The notes: generated by a model from the letters alone, not told the origin. A DNA stretch of 64,000 nucleotides from Candidatus Woesearchaeota archaeon (GCA_964534185.1 CAZHOH010000004.1:17438-81437), one strand, 5' to 3'. Shown: positions 17,665-50,122, counted from the stretch's first letter. Program-made: numbers and translations.

Positions 17665-17809
17665 GGGTGCATAGTTTAATGGTAAAATAGGCGGCTCCAG
17701 ATGAAGGAAACCTAAGTTTCCTCTCACACACCTTAAAGGGTGTTTGTTAATGTAAGTTGTGAGAATATGGAGTGACCGCCGGCTGGGGGTTCGATTCCTC
17801 CTGCACCCA
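17665..17809 (+). tRNA. tRNA-Trp (anticodon CCA) containing a 74-nt intron after position 37
   Basis: Acceptor GGGTGCA/TGCACCC with discriminator A, D-arm GTTT-AATGGTA-AAAT, anticodon stem GGCGG (17690-94) with loop CTCCAG. The intron spans 17701-17774, then A38 and CCGCC (17776-80). Variable region GGCT and T-arm GGGGG-TTCGATT-CCTCC follow. Exon CTCCA pairs with intron-end TGGAG, consistent with a BHB motif. The intron has the hairpin GGAAAC-CTAA-GTTTCC. Confidence 0.8.
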
Positions 17810-17815
17810 TTTTTT

Positions 17816-19225
17816 ATGAAGGAAAAAATTAAAAAAAAGGAAAGAGGAAAAGTTGAGAAGTCTTTGAAGTATTCTATAAAAGAGGGAAGTGCGACTTCTT
17901 TTATGTCAGGAGCTGGAGAATCTTATATAGTTCCTTTTGCTCTTGCATTAAATGCTTCGAATGCGCAGATTGGTTACTTAACAAGTTTTGTTGGTTTGTT
18001 CCGTTCTTTTTCACAAATTTTTGGGAGTCGGGCAGTTTATAATGTCAGTCGTAAAAAAATTGTTTTAGTTTCTGTTTTTTCTCAGGCGCTTATTTGGGTT
18101 TTGATTTCTCTTCTTGGTTTTCTTGTTTGGAAAGGAGTTGTTAATGCTTATGCTGCGATTTTTTTAATTATTATTTATAGTATTTATGGAATTGTTGCAA
18201 GTTTTCCAGGACCTGCCTGGTTTTCATGGACGGGTGATTTAGTTCCGAATGAAAGACGGGGTGATTATTTTGCGAACAGGAATAAAATTGTAGGGATTGT
18301 TTCTATGACTGTTACACTTATTGCTGCGTTTTTTCTTGACTATAGTGAGGGTAGTGGTTTTTTACTTCTTGGGTTTATTGTATTGTTTTTGATTGCAGCT
18401 TCGGGAAGATTTGTTTCTGGTTATTATTTTACAAAACATTATGAACCAAATGCAGAGTTTAATCGAGAAGGTTATTTTACCCTTTTGCAATTTATTAAGA
18501 AAGCTCCTTTTAATAATTTCGGGACTTTTGTGATTTTTGTTGCTTTGATAAATATGGCGACGAATTTTGCTGCACCTTTTTTTGCAGTTTATATGTTGAA
18601 GGAGCTTGGATTTAATTATTTTTGGTTTATTGTTGTTGGAATTTCAGGAACTTTATTTACGATTATTGCTATGCCGATGTGGGGAAAAGTTGGTGATGCT
18701 TATGGGAACAGGACTTTATTGAAGATTGGAAGTTTTCTGATTGTTTTGCCTCCTTTTCTTTGGTTATTTGTTGACAAACCTTTGGAGATAATTTTTAGTG
18801 TGAGTGTTTTTGGGGGTTTTGGGTGGGCGGCTTTTAATCTTGCTGCTTCTAATTTTATTTATGATGCTGTTACTCCTCAAAGAAGGGCTATTTGTGTTGC
18901 TTATCATACTGTTTTTTCAGGAATTGGTGTTTTTGTTGGGGCTTTGCTTGGAGGTTTGTTTGTTGAATATGTTTCTTTAAGTTTTACAAATATTTTCTTT
19001 GCAGTGTTTTTTATTTCTAGTTTTTTGAGAGGAGTTTTTGGATTGATATTTATTCCTAGGATAAAAGAAGTTAGGAATTTTCCGAGTTTTGAAAAAAGAA
19101 TTGGGGCTTTGACTTATGCGACTCTTTTGATACCTGGGCCGTTTTATAGTTTGTTTCGTGGCGTGCGGGGGGCGTTTGGTTCTGTCGGCGAGCACGCTAA
19201 GAATGTTGTAAAGAGGAAAAGTTAG
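17816..19225 (+). CDS. MFS-type transporter
   Basis: About 12 hydrophobic helices in two halves, typical of the major facilitator superfamily. Start moved to ATG 17816 because the tracked start at 17759 lies inside the tRNA-Trp. Confidence 0.65.
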   Translation: MKEKIKKKERGKVEKSLKYSIKEGSATSFMSGAGESYIVPFALALNASNAQIGYLTSFVGLFRSFSQIFGSRAVYNVSRKKIVLVSVFSQALIWVLISLLGFLVWKGVVNAYAAIFLIIIYSIYGIVASFPGPAWFSWTGDLVPNERRGDYFANRNKIVGIVSMTVTLIAAFFLDYSEGSGFLLLGFIVLFLIAASGRFVSGYYFTKHYEPNAEFNREGYFTLLQFIKKAPFNNFGTFVIFVALINMATNFAAPFFAVYMLKELGFNYFWFIVVGISGTLFTIIAMPMWGKVGDAYGNRTLLKIGSFLIVLPPFLWLFVDKPLEIIFSVSVFGGFGWAAFNLAASNFIYDAVTPQRRAICVAYHTVFSGIGVFVGALLGGLFVEYVSLSFTNIFFAVFFISSFLRGVFGLIFIPRIKEVRNFPSFEKRIGALTYATLLIPGPFYSLFRGVRGAFGSVGEHAKNVVKRKS

Positions 19226-42873: not shown

Positions 42874-44952
42874 ATGGATAGAAAATTGGTGATTTTGGGG
42901 TTTGCTTTTGTATTTGGATTTTTGCTTTTTTCTTCGATTAATGTAAGTGCTAATGTTTATTTTACAGGACAGCCACAGGAAGTTTATAATCTTGGTGATA
43001 GAATTGACGTCGGTTTTGGGACTGATGGGACTCCGGGTTGGTTGCAGATAGATTTGATGTGTGGGAATTTGAGTCGGATGGTGGATTTTAGATATTTGGA
43101 TGAAGAGGAGGTGGAGTCTTCGCTTAATATTCCTCTTACAAATAATTTTCTTAGGAATTTGAAAGGTGATTGTTCTTTGAAAATGACTTTTGAGGATGAG
43201 GTCAAAGAGAGTTTAGGATTTAAGATTTCTAATGAAGTGATTACTGAGATAAGTTTTAATCAGAATAGTTTTAATCCGAATGAGACTCTGATTTATACTG
43301 GTAGTGTTCGAAAGCCTAATGGAGAGGATGTTGTAGGATTTGCTGAGGTTTCTTTTAATGGTGTTGAGTTGGAAAGTGTGGTTCCTGTTAATGGTGATTC
43401 TTTTTCTGGAGAGATTTTTATTCCAGGGAATATTGCTTCTGGAAATTATGCTGTTGAGACTTTTGTTTATGAAAAGGACAAGAATGAGGAAGTGACTAAT
43501 TTTGGTTTTTCTAATGCTAGTGTTACTGTTTTACAGCAGCCAAAAAGTTTAGAGGTTGAAGTTTCTAATAGCATTACTCCTGGGGAGAATCTGGAGTTTA
43601 GTGCGATTCTTTTTGATCAGGCAGGCTATAATATTGATGCTGTTCCTGTTGAGTTTGAGATTTATAATGTTGAGGGTGAAAGAGTGTTGAATGTTTTGGG
43701 TGAGACAGGAACTTCAAGTTCTTATAGTATTAGAAAAAATGCTCCTTATGGTTATTGGAATGTAAGTGCAAATGCTAAAGAGTTATCTGATTTGAAGAAT
43801 TTTTATGTTGATAAGTATCAGGAGGCGGAGTTTGAGTTGGTTAATAATACATTGAAAATTACGAATATTGGGAATATTAATTATGATAAGCATGTTGAGA
43901 TTGGTGTTGGTAATCAGACAGAGGTTAAGAATTTGAACTTGAGTTTGGGAGAGAGTGCTGAATTTAAGCTTTCTGCTCCTGATGGGGAGTATGAAATTAA
44001 TGTTAAGGATGGAGTTTCGAGTATTACTGGGAATGTTGTTTTGACTGGAGATGCGATTTCAATTGAACCTGTTCGGCGAGGGGTTTTGGGATGGTTGAGT
44101 GGCAATTTCTTTGCTTGGATTTTTATTATTTTAGTTTTTGGTTTGTTTATCTTGCTTACCTATCGGAAAGTTGTTCAGAAAAAATTTGTTTTGAATTTTG
44201 ATAGTTTGAAATTTGGAAAGAAAAATAAAGAGGAAGGTAAACCAACTTCTATGAAAGTTAGTAAAGGAGGGGTTTTGAAAGTTGGAAGTGATGGCAAAAA
44301 GTCAAGTGTTGATAATGTAGGTTATGAAGCGAGTTCTTCACTTGTTATTGATGGACAGAAGCAGAATGCAGGGATTCTTGCTTTGAAAATTAAAAATCAT
44401 TCTGAATTGGATAAGGTGAAGGGTTCGAATGCTCATGAAGCAATTAATAAGGTTGTCGATAAGATTTCGCATAATGGGGGAAAGGTTTATCGGGCGAATG
44501 ATTATATTGTGGGGATTTTCAGTCCCAGCATTACAAAGACTTTTGATAATAGTTTGAATGCTATTAAGACTGGGAAAGAGATTTCAGATATTTTTGCAGA
44601 GCATAATAAAAAGTATAGTCATAAGATTAAGTATGGAATTGGGGTTAATGAGGGGGAAATTGTTACTAAAAAAGATAATGGGAAGTTTTTGTTTACTCCT
44701 TTGAGAAATGTTTTGTCTCAAAGCAAAATGATTGCAGATATTTCTGAGGGTGGTGTTTTGATGAGTGAGAGTTCTCAGAAAAAAGTTATGTCTAAAGTGA
44801 AGGCAATTCCTAATCAGTCTCAGAGAGGTATTAAGACTTTTGCTATTGGAGAGATTAATGATAATAGGGAGAATCAACAGTTTATTGAAGAGTTTTTGAA
44901 AAGGAATAAGGGTGATTTTAAACAATTGAGTGATTATAGGTTGAGGAAATAG
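42874..44952 (+). CDS. large membrane protein: signal peptide, extracellular beta-sandwich-like repeats, single TM, cytoplasmic nucleotidyl-cyclase-like (degenerate) domain
   Basis: N-terminal signal/TM and an internal TM (WIFIILVFGLFILLTY). The C-terminal ~170 aa resemble a class III cyclase fold (ILALKIK...NDYIVGIF...KIKYGIGVNEGEIV) but the first metal-binding Asp is replaced by Lys. Confidence 0.45.
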   Translation: MDRKLVILGFAFVFGFLLFSSINVSANVYFTGQPQEVYNLGDRIDVGFGTDGTPGWLQIDLMCGNLSRMVDFRYLDEEEVESSLNIPLTNNFLRNLKGDCSLKMTFEDEVKESLGFKISNEVITEISFNQNSFNPNETLIYTGSVRKPNGEDVVGFAEVSFNGVELESVVPVNGDSFSGEIFIPGNIASGNYAVETFVYEKDKNEEVTNFGFSNASVTVLQQPKSLEVEVSNSITPGENLEFSAILFDQAGYNIDAVPVEFEIYNVEGERVLNVLGETGTSSSYSIRKNAPYGYWNVSANAKELSDLKNFYVDKYQEAEFELVNNTLKITNIGNINYDKHVEIGVGNQTEVKNLNLSLGESAEFKLSAPDGEYEINVKDGVSSITGNVVLTGDAISIEPVRRGVLGWLSGNFFAWIFIILVFGLFILLTYRKVVQKKFVLNFDSLKFGKKNKEEGKPTSMKVSKGGVLKVGSDGKKSSVDNVGYEASSSLVIDGQKQNAGILALKIKNHSELDKVKGSNAHEAINKVVDKISHNGGKVYRANDYIVGIFSPSITKTFDNSLNAIKTGKEISDIFAEHNKKYSHKIKYGIGVNEGEIVTKKDNGKFLFTPLRNVLSQSKMIADISEGGVLMSESSQKKVMSKVKAIPNQSQRGIKTFAIGEINDNRENQQFIEEFLKRNKGDFKQLSDYRLRK

Positions 44953-45334: not shown

Positions 45335-45835
45335 ATGGAAAATAGAAAACTTGGAGGTTTGTTGATTGTAATTGCTCTTTTGGTAGGAGGAATTCTTATT
45401 TATTATAATTCACAATTAACAGGAGAGGCAGTTGCAATAGGATGTTATTCTTCAGATAGTGATTGTTTGCCGATTGAGAAAAGTTTATCTTTGAGTCATT
45501 TTGCAATTGGGGTATTTTCTTTTATCCTTGCACTTGGGTTTTACCTTTTATTTTTTAATAAAACAGAGCAGGCGATTTTGAAAAGACTTGAAGATGATAA
45601 AAATCAGAAGGTTACTGGTGAAATGTTTAAATGGGTTTTGATGGCTCTTGATTCTTATGAAAAGAGGGTTATGGAAGAGGTTAAGAAGCAGGAGGGGATA
45701 ACTCAGAATACTTTGAGATTAAGGACAAATATGTCTAAAGCAAAATTGTCTTATGTTTTACAAGAACTTGAAAAAAGGAATCTTATTAAAAGAGTTAGTA
45801 AAGGTAAGACTCTTCAGGTGTTTTTGAAAATTTAA
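45335..45835 (+). CDS. membrane-anchored winged-helix (MarR/PadR-like) transcriptional regulator
   Basis: Two N-terminal TM helices, then GITQNTLRLRTNMSKAKLSYVLQELEKRNLIKRVSKGK (wHTH). Confidence 0.5.
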   Translation: MENRKLGGLLIVIALLVGGILIYYNSQLTGEAVAIGCYSSDSDCLPIEKSLSLSHFAIGVFSFILALGFYLLFFNKTEQAILKRLEDDKNQKVTGEMFKWVLMALDSYEKRVMEEVKKQEGITQNTLRLRTNMSKAKLSYVLQELEKRNLIKRVSKGKTLQVFLKI

Positions 45836-45918
45836 AAAGGGTTTTGAACGTTCTATTGCTTAAATTTAAAGGTTTCAGGCTTTTTTAACGGTGTTGTTCA
45901 TACCCTAAGATATATAAT

Positions 45919-46704
45919 ATGGACTATTTTAAAATAGTGATGAAAAATTTGAAAGGAGGTTTTATGAGTGAAGGAAATCAAGAAAGTCAAGGTGAAGGTT
46001 TTACAGTTAAGAAGCTTACACTTTGGAAAGGTCTAACAGGACTTTTTGCTGTGCTCTTTGTTGTCTCGTTGATGACTGGAGGATTTAATTTGTCTGGTAG
46101 TGGTACTGGTGCTGTTGTTGCAGATGCTGGAAATAATCCTAATCCCCCTGCTGTTAATGGCAATACTGAAGTTTCTATTAGCGATGATGACCCTATTTTA
46201 GGTGATAAAGATGCCGAGATATCAATTGTAGAGTTTTCTGATTTTCAGTGTCCGTTCTGTGAAAGGGCTTATTCAGGGGCTTTGGCTCAGTTTAAGCAGA
46301 GTGATTATTTTGAGAATGGCGAAGTGAATCTGGTTTACAAGCACTTTCCTTTAAGGAGTATTCATCCTGATGCTCAAAAGGCAGGAGAAGCTGCTGAGTG
46401 TGCAAGGAGACAAGGAAAGTTTTGGGAATACCATGATACTTTATTTGAGAATCAGAGAGCATTAGATGGTGCAAGTTTGAAGTCTTATGCTTCGCAGTTA
46501 GGACTTGATACATCTAAATTTAATTCATGTCTTGACAATGGAGAGGCAACTGCAAAAGTTAATGCAGATTTAGATGAAGCAACTGCAGCAGGTGGTAGAG
46601 GAACTCCATACTTTGTTTTGATAAACAGTGATGGAGAGACTCAGACAGTTTCAGGAGCTGTTCCTTGGAGCAACTTTGAATCTGCAATAAAGGCTTTGCA
46701 ATAA
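45919..46704 (+). CDS. DsbA-like thiol:disulfide oxidoreductase, membrane anchored
   Basis: TM anchor, then a thioredoxin fold with active site CPFC (FSDFQCPFCERAY) and a downstream cis-Pro region. Confidence 0.8.
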   Translation: MDYFKIVMKNLKGGFMSEGNQESQGEGFTVKKLTLWKGLTGLFAVLFVVSLMTGGFNLSGSGTGAVVADAGNNPNPPAVNGNTEVSISDDDPILGDKDAEISIVEFSDFQCPFCERAYSGALAQFKQSDYFENGEVNLVYKHFPLRSIHPDAQKAGEAAECARRQGKFWEYHDTLFENQRALDGASLKSYASQLGLDTSKFNSCLDNGEATAKVNADLDEATAAGGRGTPYFVLINSDGETQTVSGAVPWSNFESAIKALQ

Positions 46705-46748
46705 TTTTGTTTTTTTTATTTTTGCTTCCTTTATTTTTTTAAAATGGA

Positions 46749-47261
46749 ATGTTTAAAATGGAATGGGAAAATCGTAAGAAGAAAATAAAGAAGGCGCTTC
46801 TTGAAAAGCCGTATGTTTTTATTTTTTTAATTGTGTTTATAGGCTATCTTGGTTTGAATGCATGGATTAATGACTTTGAGGTTACTTCAGGTGTTTTATT
46901 TACTAATTATTATACCGGTTTTATTGTGCCTTTTTTGATTTTGATGGTTTTGGTTGGGGGTTTGACTGCTTTGACTGTTAATCTTGTATTGGTTAAATAT
47001 GTTGAGTTGAAAATGTTGGCAGGTGTGAGTGGTTTTGCAGGGGTAGGGGTTTTTGTTGGTTTGTTGGGAGGAGCGTGTCCGGGGTGTTTTGCTGGATTGT
47101 TTCCTGCTTTTGTTGGTTTATTTGGAGTGAGTGCAACACTTGGAAATCTTCCTTTGTATGGTTTGGAGATTCAGATTTTATCGATAGGTTTATTAATGAT
47201 TTCTGTATTTTTTTTAACAAGCGAAACTAAATGTAAGGTGAAATATAAGAAAAATGGCTGA
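46749..47261 (+). CDS. membrane protein with CPGC motif (possible disulfide relay component)
   Basis: 170-aa polytopic protein. CxxC (GGACPGCFAG) lies within a hydrophobic segment. Confidence 0.4.
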   Translation: MFKMEWENRKKKIKKALLEKPYVFIFLIVFIGYLGLNAWINDFEVTSGVLFTNYYTGFIVPFLILMVLVGGLTALTVNLVLVKYVELKMLAGVSGFAGVGVFVGLLGGACPGCFAGLFPAFVGLFGVSATLGNLPLYGLEIQILSIGLLMISVFFLTSETKCKVKYKKNG

Positions 47262-47736
47262 GTTTAAATGTGTTGAATGTGAGAAAGAGTTTTTATCTAA
47301 GGATGCTTTGGATATGCATAATAATTCAAAACATTATACTGCTCCTAAGTTTAATTTTGATAAACGGAAAGTTCGAAATTGGGGAATTTTTGTTTTCATT
47401 GTTATTGTGATTATTTCTGGAGGTTATGCTATGACTGTTGTTGATTTAGAAGGAGAGCATGATGAATTTGCGCAGTGTATGACTGAAGCTGGTGTGAAAA
47501 TGTATGGGGCTTATTGGTGTTCAAATTGTGCTACTCAGAAAAACATGTTTGGAAGGAGCTGGGAGCATGTTGAGCATATTGAATGTGCTTTTCCTAATAA
47601 TGCTCAAGGGCAGAAACAGATTTGTGTGGATGAAAGTATTGAGGCTTATCCGACTTGGGAGTTTTCAGATGGTTCTCGGGTTGAAGGTGTTATAAGTCTT
47701 GAGAGACTTTCTGTATTAAGTGGCTGTGAATTGTAA
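47254..47736 (+). CDS. C2H2 zinc-finger / TM / thioredoxin-like fusion protein
   Basis: N-terminal CVECEKEF...H..SKH (C2H2), one TM helix, then the thioredoxin-like WCSNC active site and AYPTW cis-Pro motif. Confidence 0.55.
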   Translation: MAEFKCVECEKEFLSKDALDMHNNSKHYTAPKFNFDKRKVRNWGIFVFIVIVIISGGYAMTVVDLEGEHDEFAQCMTEAGVKMYGAYWCSNCATQKNMFGRSWEHVEHIECAFPNNAQGQKQICVDESIEAYPTWEFSDGSRVEGVISLERLSVLSGCEL

Positions 47737-48298
47737 GATGGAAGAGTTTATCAATAATGTTGTGGGGCTTGGAGTTTTTTTAATGCAAATTGCTTTTTTA
47801 GTTGGGGTTGGGGTTTTTATTTATGTTAAGAAAACTGGGAAGGTTGTTCCTTCTTATTTTAGATGGGTTTGGTATTTTGTAAAGGATAATTCTCTTTTAT
47901 TGGCTTTGGTTATTGTTACAGGAAGTACTATTGGAAGTTTATATTATTCTTATGGTTTGGGATATGCGTCTTGTGATTTGTGCTGGTTTCAGAGGGCTAT
48001 GATTTATCCCCAGGTTGTTATTTTGGGTGTTGCATTTTTGAAAAAGAATAAAGAAATTTTTGATTATGTTATTGGGTTGAATGTTGTTGGATTTATTATT
48101 GGGGCTTATCAGTATTATTTTCAAATGTTTGGTAATGCAGAAGCTTGCCCTATTGGAGAGGTTTCTTGCTTTTCGATTTATGTTCTTGAAATGAATTATA
48201 TTACAATTCCGATGATGTCGCTGAGTGTTTTTGTTTTGGTAGGGGTTTTAACTTATATCTGGAAGTATTATGATGAAGAGAATCCGAGGATTGAATAG
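47720..48298 (+). CDS. dsbB: disulfide bond formation protein B (DsbB/BdbC family)
   Basis: 4-TM protein. CDLCWFQRAMIYP closely matches the BdbC/DsbB first-loop CxxC-W-QR..YP motif. A second Cys pair lies in the later loop (CPIGEVSC). Confidence 0.75.
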   Translation: MAVNCKMEEFINNVVGLGVFLMQIAFLVGVGVFIYVKKTGKVVPSYFRWVWYFVKDNSLLLALVIVTGSTIGSLYYSYGLGYASCDLCWFQRAMIYPQVVILGVAFLKKNKEIFDYVIGLNVVGFIIGAYQYYFQMFGNAEACPIGEVSCFSIYVLEMNYITIPMMSLSVFVLVGVLTYIWKYYDEENPRIE

Positions 48299-48332: not shown

Positions 48333-49049
48333 ATGGACGGAACTTATTCGCCCCAGGATTTGAGAAGATTGTTTAGGGGAGTTAGAGCTGGAAAATCCTT
48401 ATTAGATTTAGCAGTAGCTCTTGGGCGTAGTGAAATTGGGGTTGGAGCTCATCTTGAAAAACTTTCCAGACAATCTCTTTATTGGCAATCTGTAGGGGCT
48501 GGGCGAGTATTAAAAGAATATGGCAGTTTGAAATGGAGAAGACCTCGAGATAGTTCTGAAAAAGTTGAAAAAAGTAGAGAAGAAGTCAGCAAATATTTGA
48601 GAGAACATCCTAGTGCGACTGTTAAAGATTTAGAAGAGGCTGGTTTAAGCTATCATTTGTCTGTTGGATATGATAATCGGCTTAATGATGCCCGGAGAGA
48701 AGTTGGAATTGAGGAATCTCCTAAGGGAAAACAGCCTCTAAAGAGTAGAAGAGAGTATAGAGAAGATGCTTTGGATTTTATTAGGGATAATCCTGATGCA
48801 ATATTTGAAGATGTTAAAAATGTTGGCTATTATTCTGATTTATGGTGCGAGGGTGAAAGTATAACGCAACTTAGAATTGATGCAGGAGTTATTCCTGAAG
48901 ATTCTATTAAAGCTGTAGAAGCAGCGCAGATTTTGGGAGTGAGCAAGACAACAATAACTAATAGAATAAAAGCAGGAAAACTTTCAGGATTTAAAAGAGG
49001 TGTTAATCTTTACCTTTCACGTTCAGAAGTTGAAAAATATTCCCGATAG
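48333..49049 (+). CDS. DNA-binding protein with C-terminal excisionase/MerR-type HTH
   Basis: C-terminal AAQILGVSKTTITNRIKAGKLSGFKRGVNLYLSRSEVEKY matches the Xis/MerR-family HTH. The gene is visibly more G+C-rich than its surroundings. Confidence 0.5.
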   Translation: MDGTYSPQDLRRLFRGVRAGKSLLDLAVALGRSEIGVGAHLEKLSRQSLYWQSVGAGRVLKEYGSLKWRRPRDSSEKVEKSREEVSKYLREHPSATVKDLEEAGLSYHLSVGYDNRLNDARREVGIEESPKGKQPLKSRREYREDALDFIRDNPDAIFEDVKNVGYYSDLWCEGESITQLRIDAGVIPEDSIKAVEAAQILGVSKTTITNRIKAGKLSGFKRGVNLYLSRSEVEKYSR

Positions 49050-49315: not shown

Positions 49316-49519
49316 ATGACAATTATGACATCAGTAATTGTTCCTACAGATAAATTGGACAAAGTTCTTAGAGATATGGAAATGTTGGTAGAAGATGTAG
49401 CTTTGCTTATGAATCAGGAAGAAGTAGTCAAGAAGAGGATTTCAGATATTAAAGTTAATCCTTCAATTGCACTTTCTGAAAAAGAGCTTGAGGATTACAT
49501 TCATAAAAGAGGATTGTAA
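49316..49519 (+). CDS. putative antitoxin of RelE/ParE system
   Basis: 67-aa ORF located 2 nt upstream of the RelE/ParE-like toxin, in typical TA arrangement. Confidence 0.45.
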   Translation: MTIMTSVIVPTDKLDKVLRDMEMLVEDVALLMNQEEVVKKRISDIKVNPSIALSEKELEDYIHKRGL

Positions 49520-49521
49520 AA

Positions 49522-49830
49522 TTGGAATGGGTGATTAAATTACATCCCGATTTTTTGAAAGATTTAGATAAATTAGACAATAAAAATTTAGAAATATTTT
49601 ATAAGAAAAAAGCAAAAATTAAAAAGAATCCTTTAAGGTTGAAGCATTTAAGCGGAGGAGAAAATTGTTATAGAGAAGAAATAACTCAGAACATAAGATT
49701 AGTTTATTATATTGAAGGAAATATCATTTGGTTTCTTACAGTTGGAAAGCATGATAAATCTTATAATGAATATTTGATTAGATTGCGCAATCTTAGACAA
49801 AAATTAAATAAGGGAGATTTTTATGAATAA
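49522..49830 (+). CDS. RelE/ParE-family toxin
   Basis: 102 aa. KDLDKLD....I..KI.K...NP, then RLVYYIEGNIIWFLTVGKHDKSY, matches the RelE/ParE C-terminal core. Confidence 0.65.
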   Translation: MEWVIKLHPDFLKDLDKLDNKNLEIFYKKKAKIKKNPLRLKHLSGGENCYREEITQNIRLVYYIEGNIIWFLTVGKHDKSYNEYLIRLRNLRQKLNKGDFYE

Positions 49831-50122
49831 AGAGGAAATTTATTTTAGGTTGAAACAAGTTCCTAAAGGCAAAGTTATTACTTATCGTGATTTGGCGAGG
49901 AGTTTTGGTTCTCGGGCAGCGCGTTTTATTGGAAAGTGCATGAAAGAAAATTCGAATCCTGATGATGTGCCGTGTTTTAAAGTTATTCGGAGTGATGGTT
50001 TTGTGGGGGAGTATTCTGGTGGGGGGCGGGATGAGAAAGTTAGGCGGCTTCGAGCGGAGGGGATTGGGGTTGTTGAGGGGCGGGTGGATTTGGGGCGGTT
50101 TGGATTTAAGTTCAGGATATAA
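49823..50122 (+). CDS. methylated-DNA-protein-cysteine methyltransferase C-terminal domain protein (mini-MGMT / ATL-like)
   Basis: 99 aa. VITYRDLA..GSRAARFIGK...NP..VPCFKVIRSDG..GEYSGG matches the MGMT DNA-binding/active-site domain (PCHR equivalent PCFK; Cys retained). There is no N-terminal domain. Confidence 0.6.
   Translation: MNKEEIYFRLKQVPKGKVITYRDLARSFGSRAARFIGKCMKENSNPDDVPCFKVIRSDGFVGEYSGGGRDEKVRRLRAEGIGVVEGRVDLGRFGFKFRI

What the first reader, a model, noticed from the sequence alone, without database searches (positions are those of the whole stretch)
45335..48298. Four-gene thiol-disulfide oxidoreductase cluster (DsbA-like, CPGC membrane protein, C2H2-thioredoxin fusion, BdbC-type DsbB) behind a membrane-anchored wHTH regulator
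Consecutive same-strand genes encode a membrane-anchored CPFC thioredoxin-fold protein, a polytopic CPGC protein, a protein fusing a cytoplasmic C2H2 zinc finger to a TM helix and a WCSNC thioredoxin domain, and a DsbB with the Firmicute BdbC-like CDLCWFQR motif. An extracytoplasmic oxidative-folding pathway is unexpected in an AT-rich, presumably anaerobic, reduced-genome archaeon. It is probably a horizontally acquired module. The zinc-finger/thioredoxin fusion has no obvious described counterpart.
Basis: partly seen in the sequence, partly recalled or inferred. Interest (0 to 1): 0.6.

Follow-up and report, generated by a model that had tools for sequence, protein, structure and literature searches.

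The report
Two-pair disulfide system in DPANN archaeon
A tiny symbiotic-type archaeon carries a conserved five-gene set for making and managing protein disulfide bonds outside the cell, and one gene encodes an uncharacterised membrane protein that almost always follows a DsbA-like gene and may be a new kind of redox partner.

Summary
Five same-strand genes at 45335-48298 encode:
- A: a two-TM winged-helix regulator with an outside Cys pair.
- B: an anchored DsbA-like protein (CPFC).
- C: a 4-TM CPGC protein with no Pfam, NCBIfam or PDB match.
- D: a C2H2 finger + TM + thioredoxin (CSNC).
- E: a DsbB with an extra N-terminal TM.

Charge bias and natural fusions place the B, D and E active sites outside the cell.

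Across about 160 related loci the cluster resolves into two gene pairs. D's thioredoxin is the VKOR-partner type (E=4e-17 to Synechococcus VKOR-Trx). Its relatives sit directly upstream of VKOR in bacteria (22 loci) or of E-type DsbB in DPANN-type loci (11 loci). B directly precedes C in 40 of 51 informative loci, and A often precedes B. C also occurs fused to VKOR and to DsbA.

My reading is that D-E is an oxidising pair. B-C is a second redox pair whose direction is unresolved; I favour a DsbD/ScsB-like reductive role. A is a candidate envelope redox sensor.

Recent horizontal transfer is not supported: GC content is normal and the module is widespread in DPANN archaea. The organisms labelled as carrying the closest homologues belong to a phylum reported to lack an electron transport chain, so how E is reoxidised is unknown.

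The parts
45335..45835 (+). A: membrane-embedded winged-helix regulator. TM1 spans residues 6-24. An outside loop carries the Cys pair CYSSDSDC (nt 45443-45466). TM2 spans residues 56-74. The cytoplasmic wHTH lies at nt 45647-45814.
   Evidence: Pfam MarR_2 and DUF7343 score above their cut-offs. Topology comes from hydropathy and charge. The loop Cys pair is conserved in 33 of 34 homologues. A homologues are found in 31 of 80 C-centred loci, usually directly upstream of B.
45919..46704 (+). B: N-terminally anchored DsbA-like oxidoreductase. The probable true start is 45964. The active site CPFC lies at nt 46249-46260, with a Thr-cisPro loop and an extra Cys pair C161/C204.
   Evidence: Thioredoxin_4 1.4e-23 and DSBA 2.5e-18. 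PDB relatives include DsbA-like 3gyk, the DsbA-named chains 4pwo/4pwp, BdbD and Scs-type copper-resistance proteins. A GGAGG precedes the ATG at 45964. CPFC occurs in 45 of 52 homologues and TP before the cis-Pro position in 39 of 52. The domain is acidic and predicted outside.
46749..47261 (+). C: 4-TM membrane protein of an uncharacterised family. CPGC (nt 47076-47087) sits at the centre of a 43-residue Gly-rich hydrophobic stretch. The motif LPxxGxE is invariant (E140, nt 47166-47168). A third Cys (C162, nt 47232-47234) lies at the cytoplasmic end of the last TM.
   Evidence: No Pfam, NCBIfam or PDB sequence hit. AF2 model: pLDDT 79, pTM 0.75. No Foldseek PDB match, best E 1.3. hhalign against DsbB 0.7% and against VKOR 0.4%. 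763 representative clusters match the profile. B lies directly upstream in 40 of 51 loci. Fusions occur with VKOR (P0249) and DsbA (P0317).
47254..47736 (+). D: cytoplasmic C2H2 finger (C6, C9, H22, H27; nt 47269-47334), a TM helix (nt 47386-47442), and an outside VKOR-type thioredoxin-like domain (nt 47461-47733). The active site is CSNC (nt 47518-47529), and four further Cys are invariant.
   Evidence: phmmer E=4e-17 to Synechococcus VKOR-Trx 3kp9 residues 165-277. Six Cys are invariant and the ZnF occurs in the 13 closest homologues only. The downstream gene is VKOR in 22 loci or E-type DsbB in 11 loci.
47720..48298 (+). E: BdbC-like DsbB with an extra N-terminal TM helix (5 TM). The alternative ATG start is 47738. 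The first Cys pair is CDLC (nt 47972-47983), followed by WFQR. The second pair is CPIGEVSC (nt 48146-48169).
   Evidence: Pfam DsbB 35.2 bits (GA 22.1). NCBIfam PRK03113 scores 89.7 bits, below its cut-off of 124. Alignment shows C85, C88, C150 and R92 invariant and the roughly 50-aa N-terminal extension absent from Bacillota relatives. AF2 pLDDT 83.5. The top Foldseek PDB hits are E. coli DsbB 2zuq and 6wvf, probability 0.97, E 0.4-0.8.

Best explanation
The locus encodes a membrane-anchored system that handles protein thiols and disulfides on the outer face of the cell membrane. It consists of two conserved gene pairs and a sensor-regulator.

**Pair 1, D-E (oxidising).** D is an anchored thioredoxin-like protein of the kind that serves as the DsbA-equivalent of VKOR in bacteria. 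Its relatives mostly carry CPHC. D oxidises exported proteins and is reoxidised by E. E is a DsbB-family enzyme with four conserved outward-facing cysteines, and it passes the electrons to a membrane quinone. Here a DsbB occupies the position that VKOR holds in the bacterial relatives.

**Pair 2, B-C.** B is an anchored DsbA-like protein (CPFC). It works with C, a new 4-TM protein. C's CPxC sits in the middle of a broken, Gly-rich transmembrane stretch, and its third cysteine sits at the cytoplasmic face. I propose that C relays redox equivalents across the membrane to or from B. I favour the DsbD/CcdA/ScsB-like direction, in which cytoplasmic reductant reaches B and B acts in isomerisation or repair. 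My reasons are the cytoplasm-facing cysteine and the fact that a thiol relay to the cytoplasm runs downhill in that direction.

**Regulator A.** A is a membrane-embedded winged-helix protein whose outside Cys pair would report the envelope redox state and control the operon.

**Shown versus inferred.**
- Shown: gene content, motifs, family membership of A, B, D-Trx and E, conserved synteny, fusions.
- Inferred from charge bias and fusions: topology.
- Inferred only: all electron-flow steps, the quinone source, the role of the zinc finger and the sensor role of A.
For: **Families and motifs:**

**Outward topology**
- Positive-inside counts support it.
- C's C-terminus must be cytoplasmic. In natural fusions it is followed directly by VKOR TM1, or by a basic linker plus one TM before an outside DsbA domain.

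**D-E pairing**
- The genes overlap or abut.
- E co-occurs with D in 14 of 14 loci.
- D-family genes lie immediately upstream of Pfam-verified VKOR in 22 loci and of E-type DsbB in 11 loci.
- D relatives carry mostly CPHC, 64 of 97.
- D has four extra invariant Cys, consistent with structural disulfides in an oxidising compartment.

**B-C pairing**
- B is directly upstream of C in 40 of 51 loci, with gaps from -4 to 281 nt.
- C-DsbA and C-VKOR fusions exist.
- CPFC or CPYC occurs in 50 of 52 B homologues.
- CxxC, P135, G138 and E140 are invariant across the wide C family.

**E fold:** the model's best PDB match is E. coli DsbB.

**A:** the outside Cys pair is conserved in 33 of 34 homologues, and A is usually the gene before B.

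**Scs-like parallel:** B's PDB relatives include Scs-type copper-resistance proteins. Elsewhere A-B-C is flanked by cupredoxin and DUF411/CopG genes.
Against: - No biochemical data exist for any member.
- The direction of electron flow through C is not determined. A C-VKOR fusion fits an oxidative relay better than a reductive one.
- CPFC is, from my memory, also the motif of the strongly oxidising DsbL.
- The cytoplasmic Cys of C is missing in some distant family members.
- AF2 confidence is lowest (62-72) exactly around the CPGC stretch.
- C shows no detectable similarity to DsbD/CcdA, DsbB, VKOR or MauE. Any analogy is therefore functional only.
- Nanobdellota genomes are reported to have no electron transport chain (bioRxiv 10.64898/2026.05.13.725050). 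How quinol made by E would be reoxidised is therefore unexplained.
- Only 4 of 16 well-flanked B-C loci have E nearby. The two pairs are therefore separable, and their cooperation is assumed.
Confidence: 0.6

Rival explanations
1. C is a new DsbB/VKOR/MauE-like oxidant generator or oxidative relay. It reoxidises B (DsbA-like), and all four proteins feed a single oxidative-folding pathway. In organisms without their own quinones, C may pass electrons to an acceptor other than a respiratory quinone pool.
For: - B-C is the conserved core, and most B-C loci have no DsbB or VKOR within 3-5 kb (E in 4 of 16, VKOR in 0 of 80).
- The C-VKOR fusion P0249 looks like a relay.
- The motif CxxC-F-x-G recalls the CXC-F-G active site reported for MauE. 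The same preprint says further DsbB-like pathways remain to be found (10.64898/2026.03.05.709764).
- Nanobdellota lack an electron transport chain, so a non-canonical route would make sense.
Against: - C lacks a second outward-facing Cys pair like the ones DsbB and VKOR use to attack DsbA. Its only other conserved Cys is cytoplasmic.
- There is no sequence, profile or fold similarity to DsbB, VKOR or MauE.
- No cofactor-binding motif was identified.
- DsbB or VKOR could be encoded elsewhere in those genomes; this was not testable here.
Confidence: 0.25
2. The B-C(-A) module deals mainly with copper or another soft metal. In this reading C is a small metal permease, with a transmembrane CPxC as in CPx-type ATPases or MerC/MerT and a cytoplasmic hand-off Cys. 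B is a metal-binding or copper-damage-repair thioredoxin-fold protein, and A is a metal sensor.
For: - In other loci A-B-C is flanked on the same strand by Cupredoxin_1 (16 loci), DUF411/CopG (6 loci) and a Met-rich membrane protein with a CC motif (17 loci).
- B's PDB relatives include proteins named copper or metal resistance protein and suppression of copper sensitivity protein.
- C's layout of a membrane CxxC plus a cytoplasmic Cys resembles the Mer permease logic (my knowledge).
Against: - None of the copper-type genes is present in this window.
- C gives no Pfam hit to MerC, MerT or any metal transporter.
- The Pro of CPxC is not conserved in the wider family.
- Fusions are to VKOR and DsbA, which are thiol-disulfide enzymes, not to metal-binding domains.
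- Copper stress and disulfide repair are linked in Scs systems, so this reading overlaps with the best explanation rather than excluding it.
Confidence: 0.12
3. The cluster is a recent horizontal acquisition from a Firmicute-like bacterium. On this view it is a foreign island and not part of normal DPANN biology.
For: - E's nearest non-DPANN relatives are Bacillota BdbC-type proteins at 35-40% identity.
- An HTH_17 gene and a ParE toxin pair lie just downstream.
Against: - GC is normal, 0.348 against 0.340 +/- 0.014.
- Flanks are aminoacyl-tRNA synthetase and Suf genes.
- The best homologues of C, D and E (48-63% identity) are all DPANN-type, and the gene order is conserved across many DPANN lineages.
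- The DPANN E proteins share a specific N-terminal TM that the Bacillota proteins lack.
Confidence: 0.05

Closest known systems
Bacillus subtilis BdbD-BdbC (DsbA-like / DsbB-like) with CcdA-ResA/StoA
   Same: - A membrane-side DsbA-like protein of the Thioredoxin_4 type; B hits BdbD 3eu3 at 1.4e-9.
- A short BdbC-type DsbB; NCBIfam PRK03113 at 1.8e-25.
- A second branch made of a membrane Cys protein and an anchored thioredoxin-fold protein.
   Different: - E has a fifth, N-terminal TM helix and falls below the NCBIfam subfamily cut-off.
- Gene adjacency pairs E with the Trx-like D, not with the DsbA-like B.
- The second membrane protein C is unrelated to CcdA.
Cyanobacterial/plant VKOR-thioredoxin fusion (Synechococcus VKOR, PDB 3kp9/4nv5) and the split Trx + VKOR gene pairs of Acidobacteriota and CPR bacteria
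   Same: D's TM helix and Trx-like domain align with residues 165-277 of 3kp9 (TM5 + Trx) at E=4e-17. D-family genes lie immediately upstream of VKOR in 22 loci.
   Different: In this window, and in 11 loci that are DPANN-labelled or DPANN-type, the partner gene is a DsbB-family protein and not VKOR. D also carries a cytoplasmic C2H2 finger and four extra invariant cysteines.
DsbD / CcdA / ScsB-ScsC reductive pathways
   Same: - A polytopic membrane protein with essential membrane-embedded cysteines is paired, and sometimes fused, with an outside thioredoxin-fold protein.
- B resembles Scs-type copper-resistance proteins in PDB searches.
- Related loci have copper-type neighbours.
   Different: - C has 4 TM helices with a single CxxC in one helix plus a cytoplasmic Cys. 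DsbD/CcdA has one Cys in each of two helices of a 6-8 TM protein.
- No sequence or fold similarity was found.
- The direction of electron flow is untested.
MauE, recently proposed third DsbB-like enzyme (bioRxiv 10.64898/2026.03.05.709764)
   Same: Both are small polytopic membrane proteins with a vicinal Cys motif followed by Phe and Gly, implicated in disulfide formation where DsbB or VKOR may be missing.
   Different: MauE has CXC, while C has CxxC. No member of the C family hits the MauE Pfam model. The conserved K/E pair of MauE has no evident counterpart, apart from C's single invariant Glu.

Membership tests
DsbB family (gene E) | Match to Pfam PF02600 above the gathering score | tested here: met
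   35.2 bits against GA 22.1, E=2e-8. All homologues carry PF02600.
DsbB family (gene E) | Two outward-facing Cys pairs (CxxC after TM1, second pair in the second outside loop) and a conserved Arg after the CxxC | tested here: met
   C85/C88, C143/C150 and R92 in CDLCWFQR. C85, C88, C150 and R92 are invariant. The loops are predicted outside.
DsbB family (gene E) | Four-helix DsbB fold | tested here: inconclusive
   For the AF2 model (pLDDT 83.5), the top Foldseek PDB hits are E. coli DsbB 2zuq_A and 6wvf with probability 0.97, but E is 0.4-0.8 and TM-score 0.45-0.57.
DsbB family (gene E) | Quinone-dependent reoxidation of a DsbA-like partner | not testable with these tools
   This needs complementation or in vitro assays.
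BdbC-type subfamily, NCBIfam PRK03113 (gene E) | Score above the curated cut-off | tested here: not met
   89.7 bits against cut-off 124. E also has an N-terminal TM that the 135-141 aa Bacillota proteins lack.
DsbA-like thioredoxin fold (gene B) | Pfam DSBA/Thioredoxin_4 above the gathering score, CxxC, cis-Pro loop, extracytoplasmic location | tested here: met
   67 and 84.4 bits. CPFC and GTP are conserved. An N-in anchor is followed by an acidic outside domain.
VKOR-associated Trx-like domain (gene D) | Sequence homology to the TM5 + Trx-like part of bacterial VKOR-Trx, with a CxxC | tested here: met
   E=4e-17 to 3kp9 residues 165-277. The CxxC is invariant.
VKOR-associated Trx-like domain (gene D) | A VKOR partner, fused or adjacent | tested here: not met
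   No VKOR lies in the cluster. The adjacent gene is a DsbB. VKOR adjacency holds for 22 related loci, 21 bacterial plus one labelled Woesearchaeota (L073), never for zinc-finger-bearing D.
C2H2 zinc finger (N-terminus of D) | C-x2-C-x12-H-x3-5-H pattern; Pfam zf-C2H2-type models above threshold; zinc binding | tested here: inconclusive
   The pattern is present and conserved in 13 D homologues and 12 other ZnF-TM proteins. Pfam hits are below the gathering score, 19.8 against 22.6. Metal binding is not testable.
DsbD/CcdA family (gene C) | Pfam DsbD-type model match; one essential Cys in each of two TM helices | tested here: not met
   No Pfam hit for any of 31 members even at E<=10. Both Cys lie in one helix. 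No Foldseek PDB match.
DsbB or VKOR (gene C) | Profile or fold similarity; two outward Cys pairs | tested here: not met
   hhalign probability is 0.7% (DsbB) and 0.4% (VKOR). Foldseek's best E is 1.3 and neither is among the hits. Only one Cys pair is present.
MauE (gene C) | Pfam MauE match; CXC active site | tested here: not met
   No Pfam hit. The motif is CxxC.
MarR-type winged helix regulator (gene A) | wHTH domain above the Pfam threshold | tested here: met
   MarR_2 30.5 bits (GA 27), DUF7343 35.4 bits (GA 27.6), HTH_24 26 bits (GA 21.9). DNA binding and the sensor role are untested.

The most novel reading that the evidence does not exclude
Protein C founds a new class of membrane thiol-disulfide enzyme, the dedicated partner of a DsbA-like protein in DPANN archaea and CPR bacteria. 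On this reading it is neither DsbB, VKOR, MauE nor DsbD/CcdA. It would explain how cells with no respiratory chain and no quinone synthesis of their own run envelope disulfide chemistry, either as a quinone-independent oxidant route or as a minimal four-helix transmembrane reductant conduit.
Probability: 0.4. Interest if true: 0.8.

Novelty: new variant of a known kind. Interest (0 to 1): 0.6.

Why it matters
- Disulfide-bond machinery is well mapped in model bacteria, but a 2026 preprint states that it still has gaps. I found no description of it for DPANN archaea.
- This locus shows that the reduced genomes of this group keep a conserved, regulated envelope redox module. It swaps a DsbB into the place of VKOR. 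It also includes a widespread membrane protein family (763 representative clusters) that is absent from Pfam and NCBIfam and is tied to DsbA by synteny and by fusion.
- The organisms labelled as carrying the closest homologues belong to a phylum reported to lack any electron transport chain. A DPANN symbiont has been shown to take menaquinones from its host. The system therefore poses a testable question: what accepts the electrons?
- All parts are small and could be tested by complementation in E. coli dsb mutants.

Tried and rejected
- **Sequence searches for C.** Pfam, NCBIfam and PDB sequence searches were all negative, including a scan of all 31 family members at E<=10.
- **Remote homology of C.** Profile-profile tests against DsbB and VKOR were negative, so I rejected the idea that C is a divergent DsbB or VKOR.
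- **Operator search.** A search around the A and B starts found only short AT-rich palindromes that are uninformative at 34% GC. I make no operator claim.
- **Five-TM or re-entrant topology for C.** I rejected this because it would put the basic C-terminus outside. That contradicts the VKOR and DsbA fusions.
- **Extra domains fused to C.** I compared the C-terminal domains of P0310 and P0299 with a Cys-rich neighbour family (x8). Only weak collinear motif similarity appeared (E 0.34 and 0.007 in single comparisons), so it is recorded as a lead only.
- **Not possible.** Whole-genome presence or absence of DsbB, VKOR and quinone genes in B-C-only genomes could not be tested, because only +/-5-6 kb flanks are held. 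The organism name of the window contig could not be retrieved.


Full report
**1. What is in the sequence**

Five ORFs lie head to tail on the + strand:
- A, 45335-45835
- B, 45919-46704
- C, 46749-47261
- D, 47254-47736
- E, 47720-48298

B more likely starts at the ATG at 45964, which follows a GGAGG. E may start at the ATG at 47738, one base after D's stop. C and D overlap by 8 nt.

The contig is archaeal:
- Rfam finds a 145-nt intron-containing tRNA.
- The flanks hold a wyosine radical-SAM gene, aminoacyl-tRNA synthetases and a Suf operon.

The named homologues of the cluster genes are labelled Pacearchaeota, Woesearchaeota, Nanoarchaeota or Aenigmatarchaeota; one carries a Thermoplasmata label.

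**2. Family assignments**

- **A:** scores above threshold for MarR_2, HTH_24 and DUF7343.
- **B:** is Thioredoxin_4/DSBA (1.4e-23 and 2.5e-18). Its PDB relatives include DsbA-like 3gyk, the DsbA-named chains 4pwo/4pwp, BdbD and Scs-type copper-resistance proteins.
- **E:** is a DsbB (35.2 bits, GA 22.1). It resembles the BdbC-type NCBIfam model but falls below its cut-off (89.7 against 124). Its AF2 model (pLDDT 83.5) finds E. coli DsbB as the top PDB match. Probability is 0.97 but E is only 0.4.
- **D:** the thioredoxin part is not generic. Together with the preceding TM helix it aligns with residues 165-277 of the Synechococcus VKOR-thioredoxin protein at E=4e-17. That region is TM5 plus the Trx-like domain.
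- **C:** has no hit in Pfam, NCBIfam or PDB sequences.

**3. Topology**

Hydropathy and charge counts give the following layouts:
- **A:** N-in, two TM helices, an outside loop with CYSSDSDC, and a basic cytoplasmic wHTH.
- **B:** basic N-terminus in, one TM helix, and an acidic DsbA domain outside.
- **D:** zinc finger and a basic stretch in, one TM helix, and an acidic Trx domain outside.
- **E:** N-terminus out, an extra TM0, a basic loop in, then the DsbB core with both Cys pairs outside.
- **C:** basic N- and C-termini inside and four membrane passes. The third pass is a 43-residue Gly-rich stretch with CPGC at its centre. AF2 breaks the helix there.

Natural fusions confirm independently that C's C-terminus, and so the conserved Cys162, is cytoplasmic:
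- In P0249 it runs straight into VKOR TM1.
- In P0317 a basic linker and one more TM precede an outside DsbA domain.

**4. Comparative genomics**

*The D family*
- It has at least 589 relatives in species-representative genomes, from DPANN archaea, CPR bacteria and Acidobacteriota.
- The gene directly downstream is VKOR in 22 loci. Three of these were verified with Pfam at 4e-27 to 5e-21.
- The gene directly downstream is an E-type DsbB in 11 loci, all DPANN-labelled or DPANN-type. Zinc-finger-bearing D occurs with E (8 loci) and never with VKOR.
- D's relatives carry mostly CPHC.
- D therefore belongs to the family that acts as the DsbA-equivalent of VKOR, and here a DsbB sits in VKOR's place.

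*The E family*
- The close homologues of E (about 190 aa) share the extra N-terminal TM.
- The next relatives are 135-141 aa Bacillota proteins at 35-40% identity.

*The C family*
- It is large: 195 word-index hits and 763 representative clusters with the profile. All are unnamed.
- The invariant residues are the CxxC, P135, G138 and E140. The cytoplasmic Cys is present in most members.
- A metagenome scan centred on C shows B directly upstream on the same strand in 40 of 51 loci with enough sequence.
- In that scan, A is found in 31 of 80 loci, D+E in 10 of 80, and VKOR in none.
- E never occurs without D.

The window's cluster is thus a junction of two conserved pairs, [A]-B-C and D-E. L015 has the same order A-B-C-D-E.

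*The A family*

A homologues keep the outside Cys pair in 33 of 34 cases.

**5. What C is not, and what links it to disulfide chemistry**

Negative results:
- The AF2 model of C (pLDDT 79) has no PDB fold match; the best E is 1.3. A true DsbB homologue, E, did retrieve DsbB under the same conditions.
- Profile-profile comparison gives 0.7% probability against DsbB and 0.4% against VKOR.
- No family member hits the MauE, DsbD or Mer models.

Positive links:
- C is fused to VKOR in a code-25 (UGA=Gly) bacterial contig.
- C is fused to a DsbA domain in another.
- C is almost always next to B.

These links make a thiol-disulfide role the best-supported reading.

**6. Mechanism**

D-E is the better-founded part: an outward CxxC thioredoxin is reoxidised by a DsbB that reduces a membrane quinone.

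For B-C I propose direct exchange between B's CPFC and C's membrane CPxC, with C162 as the cytoplasmic contact. A thiol relay that reaches the cytoplasm would run downhill towards the outside, as in DsbD. This is established thermodynamics recalled from my own knowledge. For that reason I favour a reductive or isomerising role, by analogy with ScsB-ScsC.

The analogy draws on three observations:
- B's similarity to Scs-type copper-resistance proteins.
- The cupredoxin, DUF411/CopG and Met-rich membrane genes that flank A-B-C in other loci.
- None of those neighbour genes is present in this window, which weakens the analogy here.

The C-VKOR fusion and the many B-C loci without a nearby DsbB keep the oxidative rival alive. 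I rate the direction as unresolved.

A's position and its outside Cys pair suggest an envelope redox sensor. This is inference only.

**7. The zinc finger**

The pattern C-x2-C-x12-H-x4-H is conserved in the 13 closest D homologues. Pfam C2H2 models score just below threshold.

The same ZnF-TM anchor also heads 12 other proteins encoded right after B-C. These carry a different outside domain, a weak DUF3105 match. The finger is therefore a portable cytoplasmic module tied to this system and not a one-off fusion. Its role is unknown; it may dock to C, E or A.

**8. Horizontal transfer and 'unexpected'**

- Cluster GC is 0.348 against 0.340 +/- 0.014 for equal-sized windows.
- The flanks are housekeeping genes.
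- The best homologues and the gene order are DPANN-wide.

Recent acquisition is therefore not supported. Old exchange with CPR bacteria or Bacillota is possible.

The system is still notable for two reasons:
- Nanobdellota genomes are reported to encode no electron transport chain (bioRxiv 10.64898/2026.05.13.725050).
- A DPANN symbiont was shown to carry host-derived menaquinones (PMC11035636).

E's electron acceptor may therefore be scavenged, and its reoxidation is unexplained.

**9. Literature**

- Searches found no description of Dsb systems in DPANN or of the C family.
- The VKOR phylogeny paper lists only crenarchaeal VKORs among archaea (PMC4555120).
- A 2026 preprint adds MauE as a third DsbB-like enzyme and states that more pathways remain to be found.

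**10. Verdict**

The known parts (DsbA-like, DsbB, VKOR-type Trx, wHTH) are new members or variants of known kinds in an undescribed arrangement. The CPxC protein C is the item that could be truly new. Interest 0.6.

Noticed in passing
L159:253-801, L106:3782-4366, L133:5452-6069, L089:631-1296 and 8 more: The C2H2 finger + TM anchor of D also heads 12 proteins encoded right after B-C in other loci. These carry a different outside domain (weak DUF3105 match, 3e-4, below threshold). The anchor is therefore a portable module linked to this system.
   Followed up: partly
e.g. L097, L121, L122 (x4 x4 A B C x5); L003:8495-9891; L129:638-1252: In other loci A-B-C is flanked on the same strand by Cupredoxin_1 (16 loci), DUF411/CopG (6 loci), a Met-rich membrane protein with a CC motif (17 loci), an exported rhodanese (5 loci) and a Peptidase_M50 protein. 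This hints at a link to copper or sulfur handling. None of these genes is in this window.
   Followed up: partly
L163:6001-6963: The C-VKOR fusion protein P0249 only reads through with genetic code 25 (UGA=Gly). It lies beside bacterial ribosomal protein S2 and EF-Ts genes, so the C family extends into recoded CPR-type bacteria.
   Followed up: partly
P0310 (503 aa), P0299 (343 aa); L003:8495-9160: Two C-family proteins carry long C-terminal outside extensions with no Pfam match. One has a CCG...C-H motif collinear with a Cys-rich neighbour family (x8). Similarity is only weak (E 0.34 and 0.007 in pairwise comparisons).
   Followed up: partly
window 17665-17809 (+): Rfam calls a tRNA spanning 145 nt, which implies a long intron. 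ARAGORN did not report it. It overlaps the start of the GTG ORF at 17759-19225.
   Followed up: no
window 49316-50122 (+): A 67-aa ORF is followed by a ParE-family toxin (49522-49830), a likely toxin-antitoxin pair. A 99-aa ORF then consists only of the DNA-binding domain of O6-methylguanine methyltransferase. An HTH_17 protein (48333-49049) sits between these and the cluster.
   Followed up: no
window 1-64000: GC skew is positive in 31 of 32 two-kb windows, often 0.2-0.5. This includes stretches where the genes are on the minus strand, such as 50-56 kb. It indicates strong strand asymmetry across the whole window.
   Followed up: no
window 46705-46748: A long T-rich tract follows B's stop codon, before C. 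It could be an archaeal oligo-T terminator, so that C-D-E are partly transcribed apart from A-B. In other loci B and C overlap by 4 nt.
   Followed up: no
window 42874-44952 (+): The 692-aa protein just upstream has a signal or anchor sequence, an MG2 (alpha-2-macroglobulin-type) domain, a late TM helix and a cytoplasmic tail. It has only two cysteines (63, 100). It is a possible exported client but was not examined further.
   Followed up: no
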